From UHGV virus genome UHGV-1998140: a stretch of DNA of 50,335 bases; one strand, written 5' to 3'. A model generated the notes under the pieces. That model made no database searches. It was not told the origin of the DNA and saw only the letters and a program-made list of their open reading frames with translations. Position 1 is the first letter of the stretch. Each line of letters begins with the position of its first letter. This DNA comes from a virus. A program made the translations under genes and the position numbers. Of the stretch, positions 21,111 to 28,755 are shown in pieces.

Positions 21111-21289
21111 TATTTCTCCCCGCTATTTTTTGCGCTGGCGGATACCGAGCGCGCGATTAAAAAAGACCAAAGCAGACAGAGTATTCCGCCTGTGATAAAC
21201 CCCGCTGCAGGTAATAAAAGCCAGGCTCCGGTAGAAACCAATAAAGCCCCGGCAAGGCCAATAATGAAACTCAGAATTGTGATTAGCAC
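21110..21289 (-). CDS. Small membrane protein (59 aa, 2 predicted TM helices)
   Basis: GTG start at 21289 with GAGGAAG upstream, overlaps terL stop; its TAA overlaps the portal ATG (TAATG); not in ORF track because <60 aa. Confidence 0.45.
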   Translation of the reverse strand: MLITILSFIIGLAGALLVSTGAWLLLPAAGFITGGILCLLWSFLIARSVSASAKNSGEK

Positions 21290-23004
21290 GCTACGTCTTC
21301 CTCATCATAGATAGATTTGATGACTGCGCTGTTCAACATGGCGCGCCCTATCCCCATCATTAAACCAACCGCACCATCAATCTTGTTTTGTTTCCCCTCC
21401 TTTGTCGGACGGACAATATCGTCGCTGCCCGGCAAATACCGACCTACAACGTTCTGGATGCACCAGTTCATGATGGGATTTCCGTCATGATGGAATCGCC
21501 CCGACGCCAGTGCAGCTTCAATCTCTCTCATGGGGTCGCTCATATGGGTGAAGTTCTGTCTGATTTCGACGGGTTCCAGTCCCTCTTCCTCAAGCAGATG
21601 GCGCAAGGAAGTGGCACCATAAGGATCGATAGGACACTGGGCGATTTTCACGTTCTGACGTAACTGCAGGATGGATTCGAAAATCAGCCGATAATCTACT
21701 TCTGCGCCCTCAGTTGGAATTAAAACGCCCTGTCCCACAAAGGACTGATAACGTTCAGAGGTATGCTTAAGCTTCGGGTCGACAGAATAGATGGTGTCTT
21801 CAGGCACCCAGAACATAGGGCCTACGCAGTAGAAATGGGTAATACCTTCTATATCGCGACGAAAAACAGGAATAACGGCGTTAAGATCGACCTTTGACGC
21901 TAGATCTATTCCCAGCCAGCATTCCTCATCGGCAAAATCAGACAATTTCAGACTCTTGTCAGCAGCAGCCATCCATTTCTGTAAATCGTAAAAGACTGTT
22001 TTTGCGCTAACCCAACGATTAAAATGCTTGGTCAGGATCTTGTTGGTCTGACTGGGGTTCGATATCGCCAGTAACTGTTTTGCGCGAAGAAAGTGCTCTT
22101 TTACCGATATCCCATAATTGGGATTGGCTTTAATGAGCGCTTCCGGCTGAGTCCAGTCATCATCATCATCCAGACCATAGATGATGCCGAAAATGCCCTC
22201 ATTCTCTTCCCCATTGCGGGTTTTGCGCAGGATCTCCACCACCTGTTCCCGCTTCTCATAGCACGGCGATGTAATGTCATAACCGGCTGTCGTGATGATG
22301 AGCGTAATGGGTTGCTCGCGAGCCCCCATCCCTGTCGTCATCGTGGTATACAGGGCATCGGTAATATGTTCGTGGTATTCGTCGATAATGGCGCATGACG
22401 GCGAATCACCGTCACCGGGATCGCCAATCACGGGTGCAAATATGGAGCCATCCGGGCGAGTCATTTTTTTTGCCCAGGGCTTTATAGAAAATTTCTGCCG
22501 CAATGCGGGCAGCTTTTTCACCATCAACAACGCCGGAGCAAACACTTTCCAGGCCTGCTTTTCGGTCGTGGCGCCGCAGTACACTTCCGCACCATGTTCA
22601 CCGTCAGCGCAGAACATATAATTGCCAACGGCAGCGGCAATTGCTGATTTGCCGTTCTTTCTAGGAACTTCGATATAGATCTCAGTGAACCGCCGCAGGC
22701 CACTTTTTTTATTTACCCAGCCAAACGGAACACCCAGGGCAAACTTTTGCCAGGGTTCAAATTCTATCCTGAGTTTTCGGCGGGCCCATTCCCCTGCGGT
22801 ATGTGGCATTTTTTGTGCAAAACGAAGAAATCGCTCTGCCTTATTTTTATCGAACCGGTAAGGCCAGTTCGGATCCTTCGCGCGTTCCAGGTCATCAAGA
22901 TGTCGCTTGCAGGCAAGAATAGTTAACTGACATGCCAGAATCTTCCCGCCAACGATATCCCGTGCATACTGGTTCGCCGCATTGACGTTCGGATATGTGG
23001 CCAT
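21283..23004 (-). CDS. Terminase large subunit
   Basis: 573 aa, Walker A-like PRKNGKS, start overlaps small-subunit stop. Confidence 0.9.
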   Translation of the reverse strand: MATYPNVNAANQYARDIVGGKILACQLTILACKRHLDDLERAKDPNWPYRFDKNKAERFLRFAQKMPHTAGEWARRKLRIEFEPWQKFALGVPFGWVNKKSGLRRFTEIYIEVPRKNGKSAIAAAVGNYMFCADGEHGAEVYCGATTEKQAWKVFAPALLMVKKLPALRQKFSIKPWAKKMTRPDGSIFAPVIGDPGDGDSPSCAIIDEYHEHITDALYTTMTTGMGAREQPITLIITTAGYDITSPCYEKREQVVEILRKTRNGEENEGIFGIIYGLDDDDDWTQPEALIKANPNYGISVKEHFLRAKQLLAISNPSQTNKILTKHFNRWVSAKTVFYDLQKWMAAADKSLKLSDFADEECWLGIDLASKVDLNAVIPVFRRDIEGITHFYCVGPMFWVPEDTIYSVDPKLKHTSERYQSFVGQGVLIPTEGAEVDYRLIFESILQLRQNVKIAQCPIDPYGATSLRHLLEEEGLEPVEIRQNFTHMSDPMREIEAALASGRFHHDGNPIMNWCIQNVVGRYLPGSDDIVRPTKEGKQNKIDGAVGLMMGIGRAMLNSAVIKSIYDEEDVAC

Positions 23005-23438
23005 CAGTCAAACTCATCAAATTCATTCCCGTCATCGTCCTGATCATTTTTGCCGCTGGTCATTCGGATACGGCTGAGCGGATCTAACCCCAGTAGCGAG
23101 CCCAGACGGGCTATCTGGGAAACAGAGTCATTTCTGACGTTTACGGCAGGATGTTTTTTTAACCCTCCCATTTCGCTTTCAGTTGTCAGCCCGTTAGCCA
23201 GTAATTTTTCGGCTTCGAGCATCAGATGGAAGGCGTTGCAGTAAGCCAGAAGTAAAGGGGCATCTTCAAGCTCAAAAACGCCTCTTTCGATCAGGATTTT
23301 ACTTTGAGTCTTCCATATTCTTATAGCCGCCTCCCCCATCAACTCAGCCGGGGGCGCGATTCGGGTCAGTTTACTTTTTTGCCCGGTGGGTAAAACGGGT
23401 TTTCTTCCCCCTCCAGACGATCTAATACCAGCAGCCAT
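23004..23438 (-). CDS. Terminase small subunit (P27-like)
   Basis: 144 aa with acidic C-terminal tail, strong RBS, immediately upstream of terL. Confidence 0.7.
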   Translation of the reverse strand: MAAGIRSSGGGRKPVLPTGQKSKLTRIAPPAELMGEAAIRIWKTQSKILIERGVFELEDAPLLLAYCNAFHLMLEAEKLLANGLTTESEMGGLKKHPAVNVRNDSVSQIARLGSLLGLDPLSRIRMTSGKNDQDDDGNEFDEFD

Positions 23439-24249: not shown

Positions 24250-24546
24250 TTAATGGCTCCGGTTACGGTTGCGATTTTTATTGCGGTTACGCTGATGGCG
24301 CGGTGCGGTTTCGGCTGGCAGGTGCTCGCCTTCGAACGCTTGCGCTGGCTCTTGCGGTTGCGGTTGCGGTTGAGCGGGAACCAGTCCCTCGGGAATTTCA
24401 CCACCTACCTCAAACTTGAGATGCGGTTCTTTCCCCAAGAAATGGCTGAAGTTCAGGCCCGATAGTCCTGCATTGAGCATCGAGATCCCCTCGACATCAA
24501 CGGTAACGAGTTGGCCATCAACGTATTCAATTTTTAAATTCTTCAT
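24250..24546 (-). CDS. Hypothetical protein with PQ repeat and basic C-terminal tail
   Basis: ATG at 24546 overlaps HNH stop (ATGA); contains (GCGGTT)3 hexamer repeat encoding PQPQPQ and a C-terminal RNRNKNRNRNR tail. Confidence 0.5.
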   Translation of the reverse strand: MKNLKIEYVDGQLVTVDVEGISMLNAGLSGLNFSHFLGKEPHLKFEVGGEIPEGLVPAQPQPQPQEPAQAFEGEHLPAETAPRHQRNRNKNRNRNRSH

Positions 24547-24905
24547 CGTGTTCTCTCTGTTGCGGTTTTCGTTCTGTGGCACGGCCAGCACAACGATTCC
24601 AGATTGTAATTGTCATCAGTACCGCCGTGGGCTTTAGGAATGATGTGGTCGACGCTGGTAGCTTTTGTGGCGATACCGTGGCGTCGGCAGTTCTGGCAAA
24701 GGTATTTGTCGCGCACGAGTATCTGGGCACGAATGATTTCCCAGGAACGACCGTATCCGCGTTGCTGTCGGGTTTTTCCGGTCTGATAGTTACGCCAGCC
24801 ATCGCCAGTGTGTTGCTGCCGATGGATCTCGCAGTATCTAGTGGCGTCATTCGTCACTGCCGCGCATCCTCTGTGCCGGCAAGGTCGTTTAGCTCGTGGT
24901 GGCAT
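24543..24905 (-). CDS. HNH endonuclease (terminase-associated, HK97 gp74-like position)
   Basis: Cys/His HNH core (DHIIPKAHGG ... CWPCH); start placed at ATG 24905 (MPPRAKRPC) with GAGGA upstream. Confidence 0.8.
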   Translation of the reverse strand: MPPRAKRPCRHRGCAAVTNDATRYCEIHRQQHTGDGWRNYQTGKTRQQRGYGRSWEIIRAQILVRDKYLCQNCRRHGIATKATSVDHIIPKAHGGTDDNYNLESLCWPCHRTKTATERTR

Positions 24906-25053
24906 ACACATCCTCAAGCATGAATTTGGAGAGAGTAAAAGCGGCACTGTCGATGGGGAACTCTGAAACTGGCAACGATGCGAATGACAAATCGTCATAC
25001 GAAATCACCACCAGCTTCCCTCCTACGTATTCAATTTTTAAGCTCTTCATCAT
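24889..25053 (-). CDS. Small ORF, N-terminal paralog of 24250-24546 product
   Basis: 54 aa MMKSLKIEYVGGKLVV... shares its first ~22 residues with MKNLKIEYVDGQLVTV...; weak RBS. Confidence 0.35.
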   Translation of the reverse strand: MMKSLKIEYVGGKLVVISYDDLSFASLPVSEFPIDSAAFTLSKFMLEDVYATTS

Positions 25054-25224
25054 GTGGCATCACGAATACAAAAAGCCCCGCAGATGCGAGGCTACTGGTT
25101 ATACATCAGGGTGTTATTGATAGAGAGCAGCGTGTAAGGTTATCGCTCAGCCGCCTGTGGTGGGACACAGGTAGATATTGTAATTGCAGAGGGATAGCTG
25201 ATTAGCTCTGCTTAAGGAATAGAA

Positions 25225-25425
25225 ATGATTAAAAAGAATATGCACCTTCAAATGGAATCAAATGCCCAAACAATCGACGAATTGAACAAAGAAATTGGGC
25301 AACTGAAATGTGTCGTTGGTTTCTTAATGACTCAATTACCACCGCAATCTAGGCAGGCTGTCATCAATAATCTTGAGGAGTTTGGACTTGATGAGTCAGT
25401 TAAGGAATTTACTCAGTTCCTTTGA
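25225..25425 (+). CDS. Hypothetical small protein
   Basis: 66 aa, AAGGAA RBS 6 nt upstream of ATG, low-GC region. Confidence 0.45.
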   Translation: MIKKNMHLQMESNAQTIDELNKEIGQLKCVVGFLMTQLPPQSRQAVINNLEEFGLDESVKEFTQFL

Positions 25426-25809
25426 ACAAGGCTTGACCTAATAAATTAATGTACCAGCCTTGAGAATTTTTGGGTTGTGTCCCAGGCGAAGTAGTGGACT
25501 CGCTTCCTTCGCCTGAAACATTTTTTGGGTTTGAAGTTTTGACGTTCAACGTTTTCAAGTTATTCCTCCTTATTACGATCCCCGCTAAGTGATACAGACA
25601 GATTTATCCCTTGGTAGGGATAGATGTTCTCACCGATTCGTAAATCCGCTCACAGGTCATTCCTGCTTTGTAGCGTTCGTCTGCAATTGCAGCATACGCC
25701 ACGGGGATTAACTACTTATGTCTAACAATCGACAGTCTCATTGTTACAGCCATTAAAAAAACCACCCATGTGGAGTGCCCCCCGAAATGTGGCCTATCTG
25801 ATCGCTATG

Positions 25810-25941
25810 AAAAAGGCCGCAAAAGAGATGCGGCCTTTTGTCATGCACAGTTATCGATTAAATAAACTCTCAGGAGCCATCCGGGAGAGCATCACTTAAA
25901 CGGGTAACTGACCTCCGACAGACTGGTGTTGGGACGGAGGT
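25810..25941 (-). repeat. Structured element copy A (terminator hairpin + conserved box + second hairpin)
   Basis: GGCCGCA/TGCGGCC hairpin with flanking A/T tracts, box CTCTCAGGAGCCATCCGGGAGAG, hairpin ACCTCCG/CGGAGGT with GGTGTTG in loop. Confidence 0.45.
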
Positions 25942-26283
25942 GCAATGAGAGTAGTGTGTTTCATTTTTTTTCATACCAGCAAACACAAAATAATGGCAGT
26001 TCTTCCTGTTAATCGATAACTGCTATTCAATTAGTCTGGCCAGACGGATGATTATCCTGCCAGGAGTTATCACACTCACACAATGAAAATCTTTAAAAAA
26101 AATCCTTAGCCGGTTCACTCGCCTTCGAACAGGTGCAATGACCTTGCTCTGACGAAATTAGCTTTAATCGTTCGTTGCCATCTTCCGTACAAACAAAATA
26201 GTCACAAAAAAATAAAGGTTAAAAAGTGAGCTATTTACTGTCCTGTGGTGTATGGTTAGCAATCACTCACGAGGATAAAAACC

Positions 26284-26454
26284 ATGGCGATGCTCAAAGA
26301 CAAGATACGTACACTCAGACCTGTAAAAAGCACCTGTCCTCACTGCTCTCGCCAGTCAACACATAGCCTGTCGAGAATAAAAAACGATATAACATTGATC
26401 TGCCCATACTGCGGAAATATTTTCCTCCCCTCAGAAAGTAAACCTGTTAAGTAA
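26284..26454 (+). CDS. Small zinc-ribbon protein (56 aa)
   Basis: ATG with GAGGA 8 nt upstream; two CxxC pairs (CPHC ... CPYC); not in ORF track because <60 aa. Confidence 0.5.
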   Translation: MAMLKDKIRTLRPVKSTCPHCSRQSTHSLSRIKNDITLICPYCGNIFLPSESKPVK

Positions 26455-26697
26455 CTGATCGAATACTTTACTGAAGCTGAAGTCCACTCTCAGGCTTCAG
26501 TAAACGAAACGACTTAGCAATCAGCGTCAGGACGCGCTACAGCCTGTATCCAGCAGACCGCAAAAATAACGGCTCACTCCTTTCAGGCGATTCATTCGCT
26601 CAAAATCACCAGGAGTTAACATGCTTCTTCTCCTGCTTCTGATAATCAAAAAACCGCAAATGCGAGGTTTATTTGGTAAATATTGGTTTACCTGAAC

Positions 26698-26967
26698 CTA
26701 GGAATAATAGGCTGCGAAATGCTCCTCAACCTGCGCCCTTGTGTCTGCGCTCTCGTTTAATGTCAATGAGTCATAACCCTTAATGTGAAAAACAGGTTCA
26801 TATGCATAAACAGTAATCAATGCGTAAATTGCATTGTCAGTACCAGAAAAAATCTCATATTTCACACGCGACAGGCGCTTATGTTCATTAACTAACATGT
26901 ATGTTTCGATAAGCTTATGAGTAACCACGTTTTTTCCTTCATGACAAAAAAATCCCCTTTTAACCAT
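26698..26967 (-). CDS. Hypothetical protein
   Basis: 89-aa ORF in low-GC island; no convincing RBS. Confidence 0.35.
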   Translation of the reverse strand: MVKRGFFCHEGKNVVTHKLIETYMLVNEHKRLSRVKYEIFSGTDNAIYALITVYAYEPVFHIKGYDSLTLNESADTRAQVEEHFAAYYS

Positions 26968-27110
26968 ACGCGTTAGGAGCTAAGAATTGAAATTATTAGC
27001 ATTATCGAAGCCACTCGGCAGAATGGTCTCTGTGATGCATTTGCATTTGCATTTATCTTTGCCATGCGTACAAGCAAAATGGTGGCCTTACGGATGCCTG
27101 TTACGCACAA

Positions 27111-27241
27111 TAAAAAAGGCCGCAAAAAAATGCGACCTTTGGTTAGTACCAGTTAGAAAACTAAAATCTCTCAGGAGCCACCCGGGAGAGGCTTTTCTGT
27201 TTTTTAACTGACCACTGCCGTTTCGGTGTTGACTGGCAGTG
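27111..27241 (-). repeat. Structured element copy B (paralog of copy A)
   Basis: Same architecture as copy A; second hairpin stem changed to CACTGCC/GGCAGTG with GGTGTTG kept in loop; first hairpin has C-A mismatch on plus strand that is G-U on minus strand. Confidence 0.45.
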
Positions 27242-27412
27242 ATAACGTGATGATAGCTTCATTTAAGTTATCGATATCATTTAAATATCTAAAGAACTAT
27301 TTAAACCAATAATTCTCAACTCGCCGGAACATTCAACCATAGAAACAGGTTTCTATGCTGGTCTTTTGATGGTAAGCATCAATTCACCACAACCAGCTTA
27401 GTTGCTAATAAA

Positions 27413-27625
27413 TTATTCGGGGGTACCTTCAACGTTGAACCATAGATCTAAATGTTTAATGTAGCGCTGGATGGACACACAAATAACCACTCCATCTTTA
27501 AGGTTAACAGACTTAATAACACATCCTTTCGGTGCAAAATACTCCCCATCATAATGGGGGCGAATGGAATGCTCGTCTCCGTAACGATAACCGTGCGGAA
27601 GTTGAGGGAGTGAATTTCTTGTCAT
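27413..27625 (-). CDS. Hypothetical protein
   Basis: 70-aa ORF downstream of lysis cassette, weak RBS. Confidence 0.4.
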   Translation of the reverse strand: MTRNSLPQLPHGYRYGDEHSIRPHYDGEYFAPKGCVIKSVNLKDGVVICVSIQRYIKHLDLWFNVEGTPE

Positions 27626-27792
27626 GGGCAGCTTCTTAGATAAAAGGAATTTGAAAATCCATAGTGCATTAGCAACCTTGACTTAGATACCAACTTTTCA
27701 TTGTTTACTGCTCTAATATCTCGTTTTCAGATTTTTTGTTCATACGATGATTTAAATATCAATACCTTAAGCGTGCGACATTTATATCTGAT

Positions 27793-28023
27793 TTATCTTG
27801 CTCCCTTCTCTGTAAGCTGCGGGCAGTTGGCCTGCACGGATTTGTTGTACGCCAAGATGTCGCGCTTCGTCTGCTTATCCAGCACGTCAATATCGCGGTC
27901 AGTGAGATAGATAATTTTCGCCCACAGGCACCCTGTATCAACGACCACCGGGGCGGGTGAATTGCTCGCGCAGCTCACGATCAACATCGTCATCAGGCAT
28001 ATGGCTAACAGTCTGCTGTACAT
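27793..28023 (-). CDS. o-spanin (Rz1-like outer-membrane lipoprotein)
   Basis: Start at internal ATG (MYSRLLAICLMTMLIVSCAS) giving a lipoprotein signal with lipobox Cys; overlaps the i-spanin gene out of frame. Confidence 0.6.
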   Translation of the reverse strand: MYSRLLAICLMTMLIVSCASNSPAPVVVDTGCLWAKIIYLTDRDIDVLDKQTKRDILAYNKSVQANCPQLTEKGAR

Positions 28024-28216
28024 CACTGGCCTCCCTGGTGGCTTCCTCTTTCCGTTCTGCCGCAGCGACTCTGGCGGCGGCATCCTCTTCTGTACGTTTC
28101 TTCTCAGATTCCGCTACGGCTTTTTCACGACCGCTCATTCTGCCCAAACCAAATACACCCATGAGCAGAAGAACTGCCGCAGTGAGAAATGCCAGAATGG
28201 CTTTAATTTGCGTCAT
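27938..28216 (-). CDS. i-spanin (Rz-like)
   Basis: 92 aa, N-terminal TM helix then charged coiled-coil; directly downstream of endolysin. Confidence 0.6.
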   Translation of the reverse strand: MTQIKAILAFLTAAVLLLMGVFGLGRMSGREKAVAESEKKRTEEDAAARVAAAERKEEATREASDVQQTVSHMPDDDVDRELREQFTRPGGR

Positions 28217-28755
28217 AGCTTCACTCGCTCTTTCACCCAGCCATAAACGAACGACTCATTAGCCGAGCGCTGTTCAGCCAGTTCAAGATACCTTTGGCCC
28301 TGGCTGCAATTGAGAGCGCGCAGCAGCACTTCTTCACCTTCCTTACCCCGGGTATTCAGATAGGATTTCAAAGCATTGATGCTACGGGGTCCAATCTGCC
28401 CGTCAGCAATAAGATCTGGATAAAGTTTCTGTTGATTGTTGAAAACGTTCAGCCAGCGCTGGAACCATTTCACCTGAACAGATGGCCCCATATTTACGCC
28501 TGTATCGCACAACTCTGCCGCAATTGATGGAGAAACTGTCGCAACCAGGTCAAAGCGCGGCCCATACCAGTAATCGGCTGAAAGGATATCCAGAGCCTGC
28601 TGACGAGTCAGATCACGCATATCGCCTGAATAACCATGGGCACGGGCAACGGCCTGAGTAATCCCCCAGTTAGTTGGACCACCCTTGTCGTTTGGATTGT
28701 TAACATAGCCACCCTCTTTACCGAGGATGCTGTTGAAAATATCTTCTTTAGTCAT
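28213..28755 (-). CDS. Endolysin (GH108-like muramidase with peptidoglycan-binding region)
   Basis: 180 aa, N-terminus ILGKEGGYVNNPNDKGGPTNWGIT typical of GH108 lysozymes; flanked by holin and spanin genes. Confidence 0.75.
   Translation of the reverse strand: MTKEDIFNSILGKEGGYVNNPNDKGGPTNWGITQAVARAHGYSGDMRDLTRQQALDILSADYWYGPRFDLVATVSPSIAAELCDTGVNMGPSVQVKWFQRWLNVFNNQQKLYPDLIADGQIGPRSINALKSYLNTRGKEGEEVLLRALNCSQGQRYLELAEQRSANESFVYGWVKERVKL

What the first reader, a model, noticed from the sequence alone, without database searches (positions are those of the whole stretch)
25100..27792. Low-GC moron island between lysis cassette and packaging module
About 2.6 kb of AT-rich DNA with genes on both strands interrupts the otherwise minus-strand late operon: a 56-aa zinc-ribbon protein (26284-26454), 66-, 89- and 70-aa hypotheticals, a perfect 12-bp palindrome CTGCAATTGCAG at ~25680, and the two structured elements. 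Mixed orientation, atypical composition and small proteins are typical of acquired accessory cargo such as anti-defence or exclusion genes.
Basis: partly seen in the sequence, partly recalled or inferred. Interest (0 to 1): 0.6.

Follow-up and report, generated by a model that had tools for sequence, protein, structure and literature searches.

The report
Prophage cargo slot with twin RNA elements
The AT-rich stretch between the lysis and DNA-packaging genes of this Klebsiella-type prophage is an ordinary swap-in/swap-out cargo slot of small genes. It also holds two copies of a conserved, unannotated structured RNA element that recurs at this same junction in more than a hundred related phages.

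Summary
Window 25100-27792 has the lowest GC of any stretch of that size in the window (0.409 against 0.51). It sits between the spanins and the HNH/terminase genes of a Q-dependent minus-strand late operon. It carries four small genes: a 66-aa gene (+), a YnfU-family zinc ribbon (+), a gene called as 89 aa but really 76 aa (-), and a 70-aa gene (-). Only 30% of the region is coding. The 12-bp palindrome is at chance level.

Related phages carry different subsets of these cassettes, so the region is a mosaic moron slot, which is textbook for lambdoid phages. No search supported an anti-defence or exclusion role.

The two "structured elements" are the interesting part. They are homologous ~170-nt copies (25797-25965 and 27100-27267, both on the minus strand). 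Each has an A-rich leader, a hairpin with a CCAACACC loop, a long hairpin with a near-invariant tip, and an intrinsic terminator. The scans returned at least 120 viral contigs, and every copy lies in the late-operon orientation between lysis and packaging genes. The structure is backed by covariation (98% of cells paired, against 36-48% in slid controls). Rfam has no match.

My reading is a phage-encoded small RNA and terminator module. It also insulates the packaging genes and acts as a recombination repeat. Overall the finding is of modest interest.

The parts
25100..27792 (.). Low-GC mosaic cargo (moron) slot between the spanin genes and the HNH/terminase packaging module
   Evidence: GC is 0.409, the lowest of 953 same-size windows. 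Related loci show a mosaic presence/absence of its segments.
25074..25093 (-). Intrinsic-terminator-like hairpin (AGCCTCGCATCTGCGGGGCT followed by TTTTGT) just upstream of the packaging module
   Evidence: Terminator scan.
25225..25425 (+). p66: a 66-aa predicted helical protein of unknown function (phrog_6806), antisense to the late operon
   Evidence: Homologues occur in Klebsiella, Enterobacter, Salmonella and E. coli. Salmonella homologues lie antisense inside tail modules. It is replaced by different DNA in L124 and L036.
25478..25520 (+). Hairpin downstream of p66 (TGTCCCAGGCGAAG...CTTCGCCTGAAACA followed by TTTTTT), a probable p66 terminator
   Evidence: Inverted repeat I8. Fold z-score is -3 to -5.
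25681..25692 (.). Perfect 12-bp palindrome CTGCAATTGCAG; chance level
   Evidence: 17 such palindromes in the window against 11.8 in shuffles.
25797..25965 (-). Structured RNA element copy A (EL-A): A-rich leader with ACUACUCUCAU, hairpin 1 (loop CCAACACC), long hairpin 2 (tip CUCUCCCGGAUGGCUCCUGAGAG), and an intrinsic terminator GGCCGCA-N7-UGCGGCC followed by UUUUU
   Evidence: Covariance model R1 scores it 171.6 bits. Fold z-score is -6.2.
25990..25998 (-). Extended -10-like box TGCCATTAT, a candidate promoter for EL-A. It is conserved at a fixed distance in element subtypes A, C and D.
   Evidence: TGn[C/T]AT[T/C/A]AT lies 100-106 nt upstream of the core in 34 of 77 distinct copies. Its function is inferred, not shown.
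26175..26202 (+). Sigma-70-like promoter match (TTGCCA-16-AATAGT) upstream of ynfU
   Evidence: Promoter scan. This is a consensus match only.
26284..26454 (+). YnfU-family 56-aa zinc-ribbon protein, antisense to the late operon
   Evidence: Pfam PF23499 at 52.2 bits (cut-off 27). NCBIfam NF038384 at 67.8 bits (cut-off 36).
26471..26500 (+). Hairpin CTGAAGC-N16-GCTTCAG directly after the ynfU stop codon
   Evidence: Read from the sequence. Fold z-score is -3.7 on the plus strand.
26645..26672 (-). Terminator-like hairpin (AACCUCGCA UU UGCGGUU followed by UUUUU) downstream of the p76 gene
   Evidence: Read from the sequence. The scan did not call it because the stem is bulged.
26698..26928 (-). 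p76: a small 4-strand-plus-helix protein of unknown function (phrog_38275). The ORF runs to 26967, but homologues start at the GTG at 26928.
   Evidence: AlphaFold2 pLDDT is 81. Fold matches are non-diagnostic. A homologue lies in the same slot of a lambda-type prophage.
27100..27267 (-). Structured RNA element copy B (EL-B), with the same architecture as EL-A. Hairpin 1 uses a different but still complementary stem.
   Evidence: Covariance model R1 scores it 172.2 bits. Fold z-score is -4.2. Subtype B always lies about 160 nt downstream of p70.
27413..27625 (-). p70: a 70-aa protein of unknown function (phrog_7679), restricted to Klebsiella and tightly linked to EL-B
   Evidence: It is present next to the spanins in about 76 related loci. 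The AlphaFold2 model is poor (pLDDT 63).

Best explanation
The region is the variable cargo (moron) slot of a Q-dependent late operon, in a Klebsiella (oxytoca-group) temperate phage with lambdoid regulation and lysis genes and an HNH/terminase packaging module. It was built by recombination from independent cassettes: [p70 + RNA element B], [p76 + terminator], [antisense ynfU + RNA element A] and [antisense p66 + terminator].

The two RNA elements belong to one conserved family. Each is transcribed on the late-operon strand as an RNA of roughly 150-180 nt. The RNA has an A-rich single-stranded leader, two hairpins and an intrinsic terminator.

Inferred mechanism:
- In the lysogen, or early in infection, transcripts end at these terminators and at two further minus-strand terminators in the island. 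These transcripts start at a candidate extended -10 promoter for copy A, and probably at the p70 unit for copy B.
- Termination releases a stable small RNA and keeps Q-independent transcription out of the packaging and head genes.
- In lytic growth, Q-modified RNA polymerase reads through.
- The small RNA most likely acts in trans, by base-pairing or by binding a protein through its near-invariant hairpin tip and conserved loop. The precedent is lambda PreS/LPR1, which is made at the tL2a terminator inside an antiterminated operon.
- As direct repeats, the elements also drive loss and gain of the cassettes that lie between them.

Shown: the composition, the genes, the mosaicism, the RNA-type structure and its strand, the fixed position and orientation, and the recombinant hybrid copies. 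Inferred: the promoter, production of a discrete RNA, any trans-acting role, and the insulation role.
For: Context: the late operon is on the minus strand, with Q, holins, endolysin, spanins, HNH, TerS and TerL.

Island: it has the lowest GC in the window and is 30% coding.

Mosaicism: segment-wise presence among related loci ranges from 2 to about 127 loci. Module maps are. p66 and p76 homologues occur in other slots or other phages. ynfU occupies a comparable antisense position in Qin.

RNA elements:
- The window holds two copies at 172 bits each, both on the minus strand.
- Every copy lies between lysis and packaging genes in the late-operon orientation.
- 98.1% of cells form standard pairs, against 36-48% when partners are slid. 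Eight pairs change on both sides, against 1-3. The covariation score is 0.198, against at most 0.059, and 0 of 500 shuffles reach it.
- Each subtype folds on its own into the same three-hairpin shape despite different stem sequences.
- About 115 G-U cells sit in the stems against very few A-C cells, so the folded strand is the late-operon strand.
- All subtypes have an intrinsic terminator with a U5-8 tail.
- A conserved extended -10-like box lies upstream of subtypes A, C and D.
- The leader is predicted to be unpaired.

Recombination: hybrid copies, with the crossover in the invariant tip or between the hairpins, show recombination between tandem copies.

Precedent: lambda PreS/LPR1 at tL2a (bioRxiv 10.1101/2024.10.31.621285).
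Against: - There are no expression data, so a discrete RNA is not demonstrated.
- The two-hexamer scan found no sigma-70 promoter upstream of either copy. Subtype B, which includes window copy B, has only a degenerate version of the extended -10-like box.
- No enriched complementary target was found in the phage itself, and host targets could not be searched.
- The near-invariance of the hairpin tip is partly an ascertainment effect, because that motif was the search pattern. Collections gathered independently of it show only rare single substitutions.
- The family is phylogenetically shallow. It is found in Klebsiella and Salmonella phages, in 1 of 185,579 species-representative genomes and in 1 of 5,426 E. 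coli genomes. Part of the covariation signal is therefore inherited between a few subtypes rather than arising independently.
- Hybrid copies that misfold persist in several phages, so selection on hairpin 2 is not absolute.
Confidence: 0.6

Rival explanations
1. The elements act only in cis. They are elaborate late-operon terminators, insulators or RNA-processing sites. For example, hairpin 2 could be an RNase III substrate that leaves a protective 3' hairpin on the lysis mRNA. No trans-acting RNA product is involved.
For: - All copies end in a canonical intrinsic terminator.
- The island has four minus-strand terminator-like hairpins in 2.7 kb. Three were called by the scan and one was read from the sequence.
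- Hairpin 2 is a duplex of about 25-28 bp in some subtypes.
- Subtype D lies only 60 nt upstream of the terminase small subunit gene, and subtype B looks like a 3'UTR of p70.
- No targets were found in the phage.
Against: - A terminator or processing site does not need a second hairpin with a conserved CCAACACC loop.
- It does not need a 23-nt tip in which even the stem bases never covary (helix 4).
- It does not need a conserved unpaired leader motif.
- Subtypes A, C and D carry a conserved promoter-like box of their own.
Confidence: 0.3
2. One reading: the small proteins are anti-defence or superinfection-exclusion factors, and they are the functional point of the island.
For: - The genes are small, atypical in composition, mixed in orientation and variably present.
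Against: - There are no convincing PADLOC hits (one marginal zinc-ribbon match at E 0.003), and no Pfam, PHROG or NCBIfam functional annotation other than the uncharacterised YnfU family.
- Foldseek finds no PDB match with E below 0.1.
- The p70 model is unreliable.
- Proteins occupy only 30% of the island.
Confidence: 0.15
3. The element is a secondary late transcription unit, analogous to lambda pR'-6S RNA-tR', or a put-like cis antiterminator. A constitutive promoter is followed by a structured leader and a terminator. RNA polymerase becomes terminator-resistant there, through Q or through the RNA itself, and goes on to express the packaging and head genes.
For: - The element always lies upstream of the packaging genes on the same strand.
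- A conserved extended -10-like box lies about 180 nt upstream of a terminator. That length is comparable with the 194-nt lambda 6S RNA.
- A -10-like TACTCT box sits downstream of the candidate promoter.
- The candidate box GCCATTATTTT resembles GCCATATTTT at the phage's own pR'-like promoter just after Q.
Against: - The phage already has Q and a pR'-like promoter with its own terminator directly after Q, so a second loading site is not needed.
- The TACTCT box lies about 32 nt or more from the inferred start, further than known sigma-dependent pause sites (established knowledge of lambda, 21 and 82 pR').
- The element occurs with different late-gene sets and sometimes twice, about 1 kb apart.
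- The resemblance to pR' is about 10 nt and could be chance.
Confidence: 0.07
4. The element works at the DNA level. It could be a conserved linker or recombination site at a module boundary, a protein-binding site, or a miniature mobile element.
For: - It lies exactly at a mosaic junction between different lysis and packaging modules.
- Hybrid copies show crossovers inside the invariant core.
- The core is an imperfect palindrome.
Against: - G-U pairs are strongly strand-asymmetric, and compensatory changes preserve the hairpins. A double-stranded DNA site would not select for this.
- All copies lie in one slot and one orientation. There is no dispersal to other contexts, no target-site duplications, and no associated recombinase.
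- The terminator motif is explained by RNA.
- Recombination between repeats needs only homology.
Confidence: 0.06

Closest known systems
Morons in the lysis-to-terminase and Q-to-lysis slots of lambdoid phages (the moron concept of Hendrix and colleagues). Examples are lambda bor and the Qin genes cspI, ynfN, gnsB, ydfO and ynfU.
   Same: Small genes of atypical, low GC, often antisense to the late operon. They have their own terminators and are present in some relatives but absent in others. One of them belongs to the same family as E. coli K-12 YnfU.
   Different: Protein-coding density is unusually low (30%). The slot also holds two copies of a structured RNA element, which K-12 Qin lacks.
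Lambda PreS (LPR1), LPR2 and 6S RNA: phage small RNAs made at terminators inside antiterminated operons (bioRxiv 10.1101/2024.10.31.621285).
   Same: The RNA lies on the operon strand and ends at an intrinsic terminator that antiterminated polymerase would read through. It has a GC-rich stem plus a U tail, as Hfq-type small RNAs do.
   Different: The location differs: the late operon, between lysis and packaging genes. The RNA is longer (about 150-180 nt, against 63-88 nt for LPR1 and LPR2) and has three hairpins. No sequence relationship was shown. No expression or Hfq data exist for this element.
Prophage small RNAs in Rfam, such as IsrK (RF01394), DicF, STnc families and the c4 antisense RNA.
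   Same: Small structured RNAs encoded by temperate enterobacterial phages.
   Different: No Rfam family reaches its gathering score anywhere in the window. Hits restricted to the element are at most 20.7 bits and come from the terminator hairpin alone.
HK022 put RNA, a cis-acting antiterminator made of two stem-loops.
   Same: Two adjacent conserved stem-loops on the operon strand, followed by a terminator.
   Different: put sites lie next to promoters in the early operons of a phage that lacks N. This phage has Q. The hairpins here are larger. No sequence comparison was possible.

Membership tests
Moron / accessory cargo slot of a lambdoid late operon | Present in some closely related phages and absent or replaced in others | tested here: met
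   Segment presence ranges from 2 to about 127 loci. L124 and L036 share the packaging module but lack p70, EL-B, p76 and p66.
Moron / accessory cargo slot of a lambdoid late operon | Nucleotide composition differs from the surrounding phage genes | tested here: met
   GC is 0.409 against 0.514 +/- 0.038, the lowest of 953 windows.
Moron / accessory cargo slot of a lambdoid late operon | Each unit has its own promoter and terminator | tested here: inconclusive
   Terminator-like hairpins follow p66, ynfU, p76 and both RNA elements. Promoters are only consensus matches (ynfU) or a conserved extended -10-like box (EL-A).
Moron / accessory cargo slot of a lambdoid late operon | Expressed from the repressed prophage | not testable with these tools
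   This needs lysogen transcriptomics.
YnfU family zinc-binding protein (Pfam PF23499, NCBIfam NF038384) | Profile score above the curated cut-off | tested here: met
   PF23499 scores 52.2 bits against a cut-off of 27. NF038384 scores 67.8 bits against 36.
YnfU family zinc-binding protein (Pfam PF23499, NCBIfam NF038384) | Two CxxC pairs forming a zinc ribbon in a protein of about 56 aa | tested here: met
   The translation reads ...STCPHCSRQ...LICPYCGN..., 56 aa.
Any described RNA family (Rfam 15, including IsrK, DicF, STnc and c4) | Covariance-model score at or above the gathering threshold | tested here: not met
   There are no hits at gathering threshold in the whole window. None has E of 1 or less in 24500-28500. 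The best hit restricted to the element is 20.7 bits against thresholds of 41-120.
Hfq-type trans-acting small RNA | Intrinsic terminator with a U tail at the 3' end | tested here: met
   The stem GGCCGCA/UGCGGCC is followed by U5-U8 in all subtypes.
Hfq-type trans-acting small RNA | Own transcription start, or defined processing, that gives a discrete RNA | tested here: inconclusive
   There is no two-hexamer sigma-70 match. A conserved TGn[C/T]AT[T/C/A]AT box is present in subtypes A, C and D but degenerate in B.
Hfq-type trans-acting small RNA | Conserved single-stranded seed complementary to target mRNAs | tested here: inconclusive
   Conserved unpaired motifs exist: the leader ACUACUCUCAU and the loop CCAACACC. 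Complementary sites in the phage are not enriched. The host genome was not available.
Hfq-type trans-acting small RNA | Binding to Hfq or ProQ and regulation of targets | not testable with these tools
   This needs RIL-seq, CLIP or genetics.
Small RNA at an internal terminator of an antiterminated phage operon (lambda PreS/LPR1 type) | Lies on the sense strand inside an operon transcribed by antiterminated polymerase | tested here: met
   Phage_antiter_Q lies upstream. Every copy is in the late-operon orientation between lysis and packaging genes.
Small RNA at an internal terminator of an antiterminated phage operon (lambda PreS/LPR1 type) | Sequence homology to LPR1 | not tested
   No LPR1 sequence was available for comparison. 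LPR1 lies between ea10 and ral, which is a different location.
HK022 put-type antiterminator RNA | Acts in a phage that lacks a protein antiterminator for that operon, at a promoter-proximal position | tested here: not met
   Q is present together with a pR'-like promoter and terminator. The element lies about 4 kb or more downstream of that promoter.
Known anti-phage defence or anti-defence protein families | Significant profile or fold match to a described family | tested here: not met
Miniature mobile element (MITE) or integron attC-like cassette site | Copies dispersed in unrelated contexts, terminal inverted repeats or target duplications, or an associated recombinase | tested here: not met
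   All copies lie in one slot and one orientation. The only end complementarity is the A-tract/U-tract of the terminator. No integrase is adjacent.

The most novel reading that the evidence does not exclude
The twin elements define a previously undescribed family of phage-encoded regulatory RNAs. The family marks the lysis/packaging junction of Klebsiella and Salmonella temperate phages. Its near-invariant hairpin tip (UGGCUCCUGAGAG) and CCAACACC loop would recognise a specific host or phage partner, either an mRNA or an RNA-binding protein. Through that partner the RNA would reprogramme the host or a competing phage, while its terminator gates expression of the packaging genes.
Probability: 0.35. 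Interest if true: 0.6.

Novelty: new member of a known kind. Interest (0 to 1): 0.4.

Why it matters
As a cargo island, the region is ordinary. Variable small genes between lysis and packaging modules are a textbook feature of lambdoid phages.

What deserves follow-up is the RNA element.
- It is missing from Rfam and is unannotated in GenBank. In some records a spurious "hypothetical protein" ORF is drawn over it.
- It has clear covariation support and a strictly conserved position and strand, in prophages of clinically important Klebsiella pneumoniae lineages.

If it makes a regulatory small RNA, it would extend the short list of phage-encoded small RNAs (lambda PreS, DicF, IsrK, AgvB/AsxR) to the late operon of Klebsiella phages. 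It would also be a simple handle for studying prophage-host cross-talk.

It is a concrete example of how short conserved repeats drive cassette gain and loss at phage module junctions.

Tried and rejected
- Rfam: searches of the region, of each element alone at E up to 10, and of the whole window gave nothing beyond terminator-driven noise.
- tRNA/tmRNA scan: none found.
- Literature search for the core sequence: only unrelated mammalian primers. Searches for prophage small RNAs in Klebsiella or at this location gave no description of the element.
- A small ORF on the plus strand across the leader (ATG at 25946 behind GGAGG): rejected. The start codon and Shine-Dalgarno sequence are not conserved in subtypes B and D (reading).
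- A kissing interaction between the hairpin-1 loop and the hairpin-2 tip: rejected. Only 4 bp are possible, and they do not covary between subtypes.
- Target search within the phage for sites complementary to the loop, the tip and the leader: chance level.
- Choosing the strand by comparing MFE or G-U counts of independently folded strands: uninformative. The alignment-based G-U against A-C count was used instead.
- p70 structure: pLDDT 63, too poor for fold search.
- A second viral-contig scan with a gapped pattern returned mostly chance loci. It did give a sample that was independent of the core motif.
- The 12-bp palindrome was checked and dismissed as chance.
Full report
**Context.** The window is a temperate enterobacterial phage with its late operon on the minus strand. 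The gene order along that strand is:
- Phage_antiter_Q (31845-32693)
- a DNA methylase
- HicA/HicB (on the plus strand)
- two holins, then a GH108 endolysin (28213-28755)
- Rz-like spanins (27793-28216)
- the region under study
- an HNH endonuclease (24543-24998)
- the terminase small subunit (23004-23438) and large subunit (21283-23004)
- head and tail genes

Exact protein matches and the nearest DNA relatives point to Klebsiella, probably the oxytoca group.

**Check of the observation.** The stretch 25100-27792 has a GC of 0.409. That is the lowest of all 953 same-size windows, whose mean is 0.514 with sd 0.038. The four ORFs exist at the stated coordinates, and each matches a protein family:
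- 25225-25425 (+) matches phrog_6806.
- 26284-26454 (+) matches Pfam YnfU (52 bits, cut-off 27) and NCBIfam zinc_YnfU_fam (67.8 bits, cut-off 36).
- 26698-26967 (-) matches phrog_38275.
- 27413-27625 (-) matches phrog_7679.

Homologues of the "89-aa" protein all begin at its residue 14. That residue is a GTG at 26928, preceded by AAGGA, so the product is probably 76 aa.

The palindrome CTGCAATTGCAG is real (25681-25692). Perfect 12-bp palindromes are common here, though: the window has 17, against 11.8 in shuffles. Only 30% of the island is protein-coding.

**The island is a mosaic of cassettes.** Using the window's proteins and DNA as probes on about 120 related loci gave the following:
- p70 and the DNA around it are present next to the spanins in about 76 loci.
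- ynfU is present in 7-8 loci.
- p66 is present in about 6 loci.
- p76 is present in 2-5 loci.

Other comparisons point the same way:
- The prophage of K. oxytoca NBRC 105695 (L124) and contig L036 share the packaging module at 91-97% identity. Their slot holds only ynfU plus one RNA element, and different DNA sits where p66 is.
- A p76 homologue occupies the same slot of a Klebsiella prophage with a lambda-type Nu1/GpA terminase.
- A p66 homologue in Salmonella lies antisense inside tail modules.
- ynfU of E. coli K-12 lies antisense between Q and the holin of Qin.

This is what the moron concept describes.

**What the proteins do.** Nothing specific can be said.
- PADLOC, Pfam, PHROGs and NCBIfam give no function beyond the uncharacterised YnfU family.
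- Database homologues are "hypothetical". Some p76 homologues are labelled "DNA gyrase subunit B", which is evidently wrong.
- The p70 model is poor (pLDDT 63).
- p76 is predicted with pLDDT 81 as four strands plus a C-terminal helix.
- Foldseek finds nothing below E 0.1.

An inhibitor-type role is possible but not evidenced.

**The two structured elements are copies of one family.**
- Repeat finding and pairwise alignment show two collinear copies about 1,300 bp apart.
- Both fold far better than shuffled sequence, with z-scores of -6.2 and -4.2.
- A sliding fold scan picks them out as the main structured spots of the island.
- Homologues turn up in Salmonella phage SEN34 and in five Klebsiella prophage records, some of which have two copies.
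- A covariance model finds exactly two copies in the window, at 25797-25965 and 27100-27267. Both are on the minus strand, at 172 bits each. The model finds 120 copies in 100 sources.

Every copy lies in the orientation of the late operon, downstream of lysis genes and upstream of packaging genes, whichever terminase type follows.

The family is narrow. It occurs in one of 185,579 species-representative genomes (K. oxytoca) and in one of 5,426 E. coli genomes.

**Architecture and evidence for an RNA.** Read on the minus strand, each copy has four parts:
- an A-rich leader containing ACUACUCUCAU (GCUAUCAUCAC in subtype B)
- hairpin 1, with the loop CCAACACC
- a long hairpin 2, with the tip CUCUCCCGG(A/G)UGGCUCCUGAGAG
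- an intrinsic terminator, GGCCGCA-loop-UGCGGCC, followed by U5-8

There are four subtypes, A to D. Their stem sequences differ, especially in the middle of hairpin 2, yet each subtype folds on its own into the same shape.

On the model-based alignment of 55 distinct sequences:
- 98.1% of cells form standard pairs, against 36-48% when the 3' partners are slid by 1-3 columns.
- Eight pairs carry changes on both sides, against 1-3 in the slid controls.
- The covariation score is 0.198, against at most 0.059 in the slid controls, and no shuffle out of 500 reaches it.

The stems hold about 115 G-U cells and very few A-C cells. The folded strand is therefore the late-operon strand, which argues for RNA rather than a double-stranded DNA site.

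Information content is highest in the hairpin-2 tip and the terminator. The invariance of the tip is partly forced by the search pattern. Copies retrieved independently of it show only rare single substitutions.

Rfam has no match. GenBank records leave the element unannotated or draw a small ORF over it.

**How the element is probably made and what it probably does.**

Promoter evidence:
- The two-hexamer promoter scan finds nothing upstream of either copy.
- Subtypes A, C and D share a box, TGn[C/T]AT[T/C/A]AT, at a fixed 100-106 nt upstream of the core. In the window it lies at 25990-25998 on the minus strand.
- The box fits the extended -10 consensus. It would give an RNA of about 178 nt whose first ~44 nt are predicted to be unpaired.
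- Copy A faces the 5' end of the antisense ynfU gene and has no co-directional gene just upstream, which fits its having its own promoter.
- Subtype B (window copy B) has only a degenerate box. It always lies about 160 nt after p70, so it looks like the 3'UTR of p70.

Terminators and Q:
- The island has four minus-strand terminator-like hairpins: the two in the elements, one after p76, and one at 25074-25093.
- Unmodified polymerase should therefore not reach the packaging genes.
- The phage encodes Q, and Q-modified polymerase is expected to read through. This is established knowledge of lambdoid late transcription.

The closest precedent is lambda PreS/LPR1. It is an Hfq-bound small RNA whose 3' end is the tL2a terminator inside the N-antiterminated pL operon.

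I therefore favour a small-RNA-plus-terminator module. Whether the RNA acts in trans remains inference. No enriched complementary sites occur in the phage itself, and host targets could not be searched.

**Recombination.** Many relatives carry subtypes B and C in tandem about 980 bp apart. Others carry a single hybrid copy, with a B-type 5' part and a C-type 3' part. When the crossover falls inside the invariant tip, the arms of hairpin 2 no longer match and the predicted fold is lost. When it falls between the hairpins, the fold is kept. The elements therefore behave as direct repeats that delete, and presumably also bring in, the cassettes between them. In the window, the intervening segment is p76 plus ynfU.

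**Alternatives.**
- A purely cis-acting terminator or processing role is the main rival. It does not explain the conserved loop, the sequence-invariant tip stem, or the promoter-like box.
- A secondary Q-loading unit or a put-like antiterminator is conceivable. It is unnecessary in a phage that has Q and a pR'-like promoter with its own terminator directly after Q.
- A DNA-level site or a mobile element is disfavoured by the strand-asymmetric G-U pairs and by the single genomic context.
- An anti-defence role for the proteins remains untested speculation.

**Verdict.** As a cargo island the region is ordinary. Its distinctive content is a pair of copies of an undescribed, covariation-supported phage RNA element. 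I file it as a new member of a known kind (phage-encoded small RNA and terminator modules) and rate it of moderate interest.

Noticed in passing
window 29553-30205 (+) and 30233-31309 (-): The Q-to-holin slot also carries cargo. It holds a HicA/HicB toxin-antitoxin pair on the opposite strand and an N6/N4 DNA methylase.
   Followed up: partly
window 31736-31830 (-): Directly after the Q gene there is a pR'-like promoter (TTGCAA-17-CATATT). A strong intrinsic terminator follows only about 55-60 nt downstream (31755-31736). This would give a very short terminated leader RNA. No Rfam family, IsrK included, matches it.
   Followed up: partly
window 24889-25053 (-) and 24250-24591 (-): The small ORFs on either side of the HNH gene share an N-terminal motif, MK(S/N)LKIEYV(G/D)G(K/Q)LV: 55% identity over 22 aa, E 6e-7. 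This suggests a duplicated small protein around the HNH endonuclease.
   Followed up: partly
L030 10051-10157 and 11146-11288: In one related contig, an insertion of about 1 kb splits a copy of the RNA element into a 5' part and a 3' part. The inserted DNA was not examined.
   Followed up: no
L001 5202-5330 (MK448234.1 22328-22456) and similar records: GenBank Klebsiella prophage records annotate a short 'hypothetical protein' ORF across the RNA element. This is probably a spurious gene call.
   Followed up: partly
proteins P0011, P0013, P0014: Some NCBI records name the 72-76-aa homologues of p76 'DNA gyrase subunit B'. This is almost certainly an annotation error.
   Followed up: no
L221-L223 4001-4198: Homologues of p66 in Salmonella prophages lie antisense between the tape-measure and distal tail genes, overlapping a 70-aa ORF on the other strand. 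The family is therefore a mobile antisense moron and is not tied to one slot.
   Followed up: partly
window 26351-26362 (+) and 27226-27237 (+): A 12-nt sequence inside ynfU (GCCAGTCAACAC) is identical to the 5' arm plus loop of hairpin 1 of element copy B, so the late-strand antisense of ynfU is complementary to it (I9). About 0.3 such matches are expected by chance in this region, so it may mean nothing.
   Followed up: no
window 47678-50323 (-): A long ORF (881 aa) with about 65% GC lies at the right end of the window. It is far above the phage's 51% and is presumably the host gene flanking the prophage.
   Followed up: no
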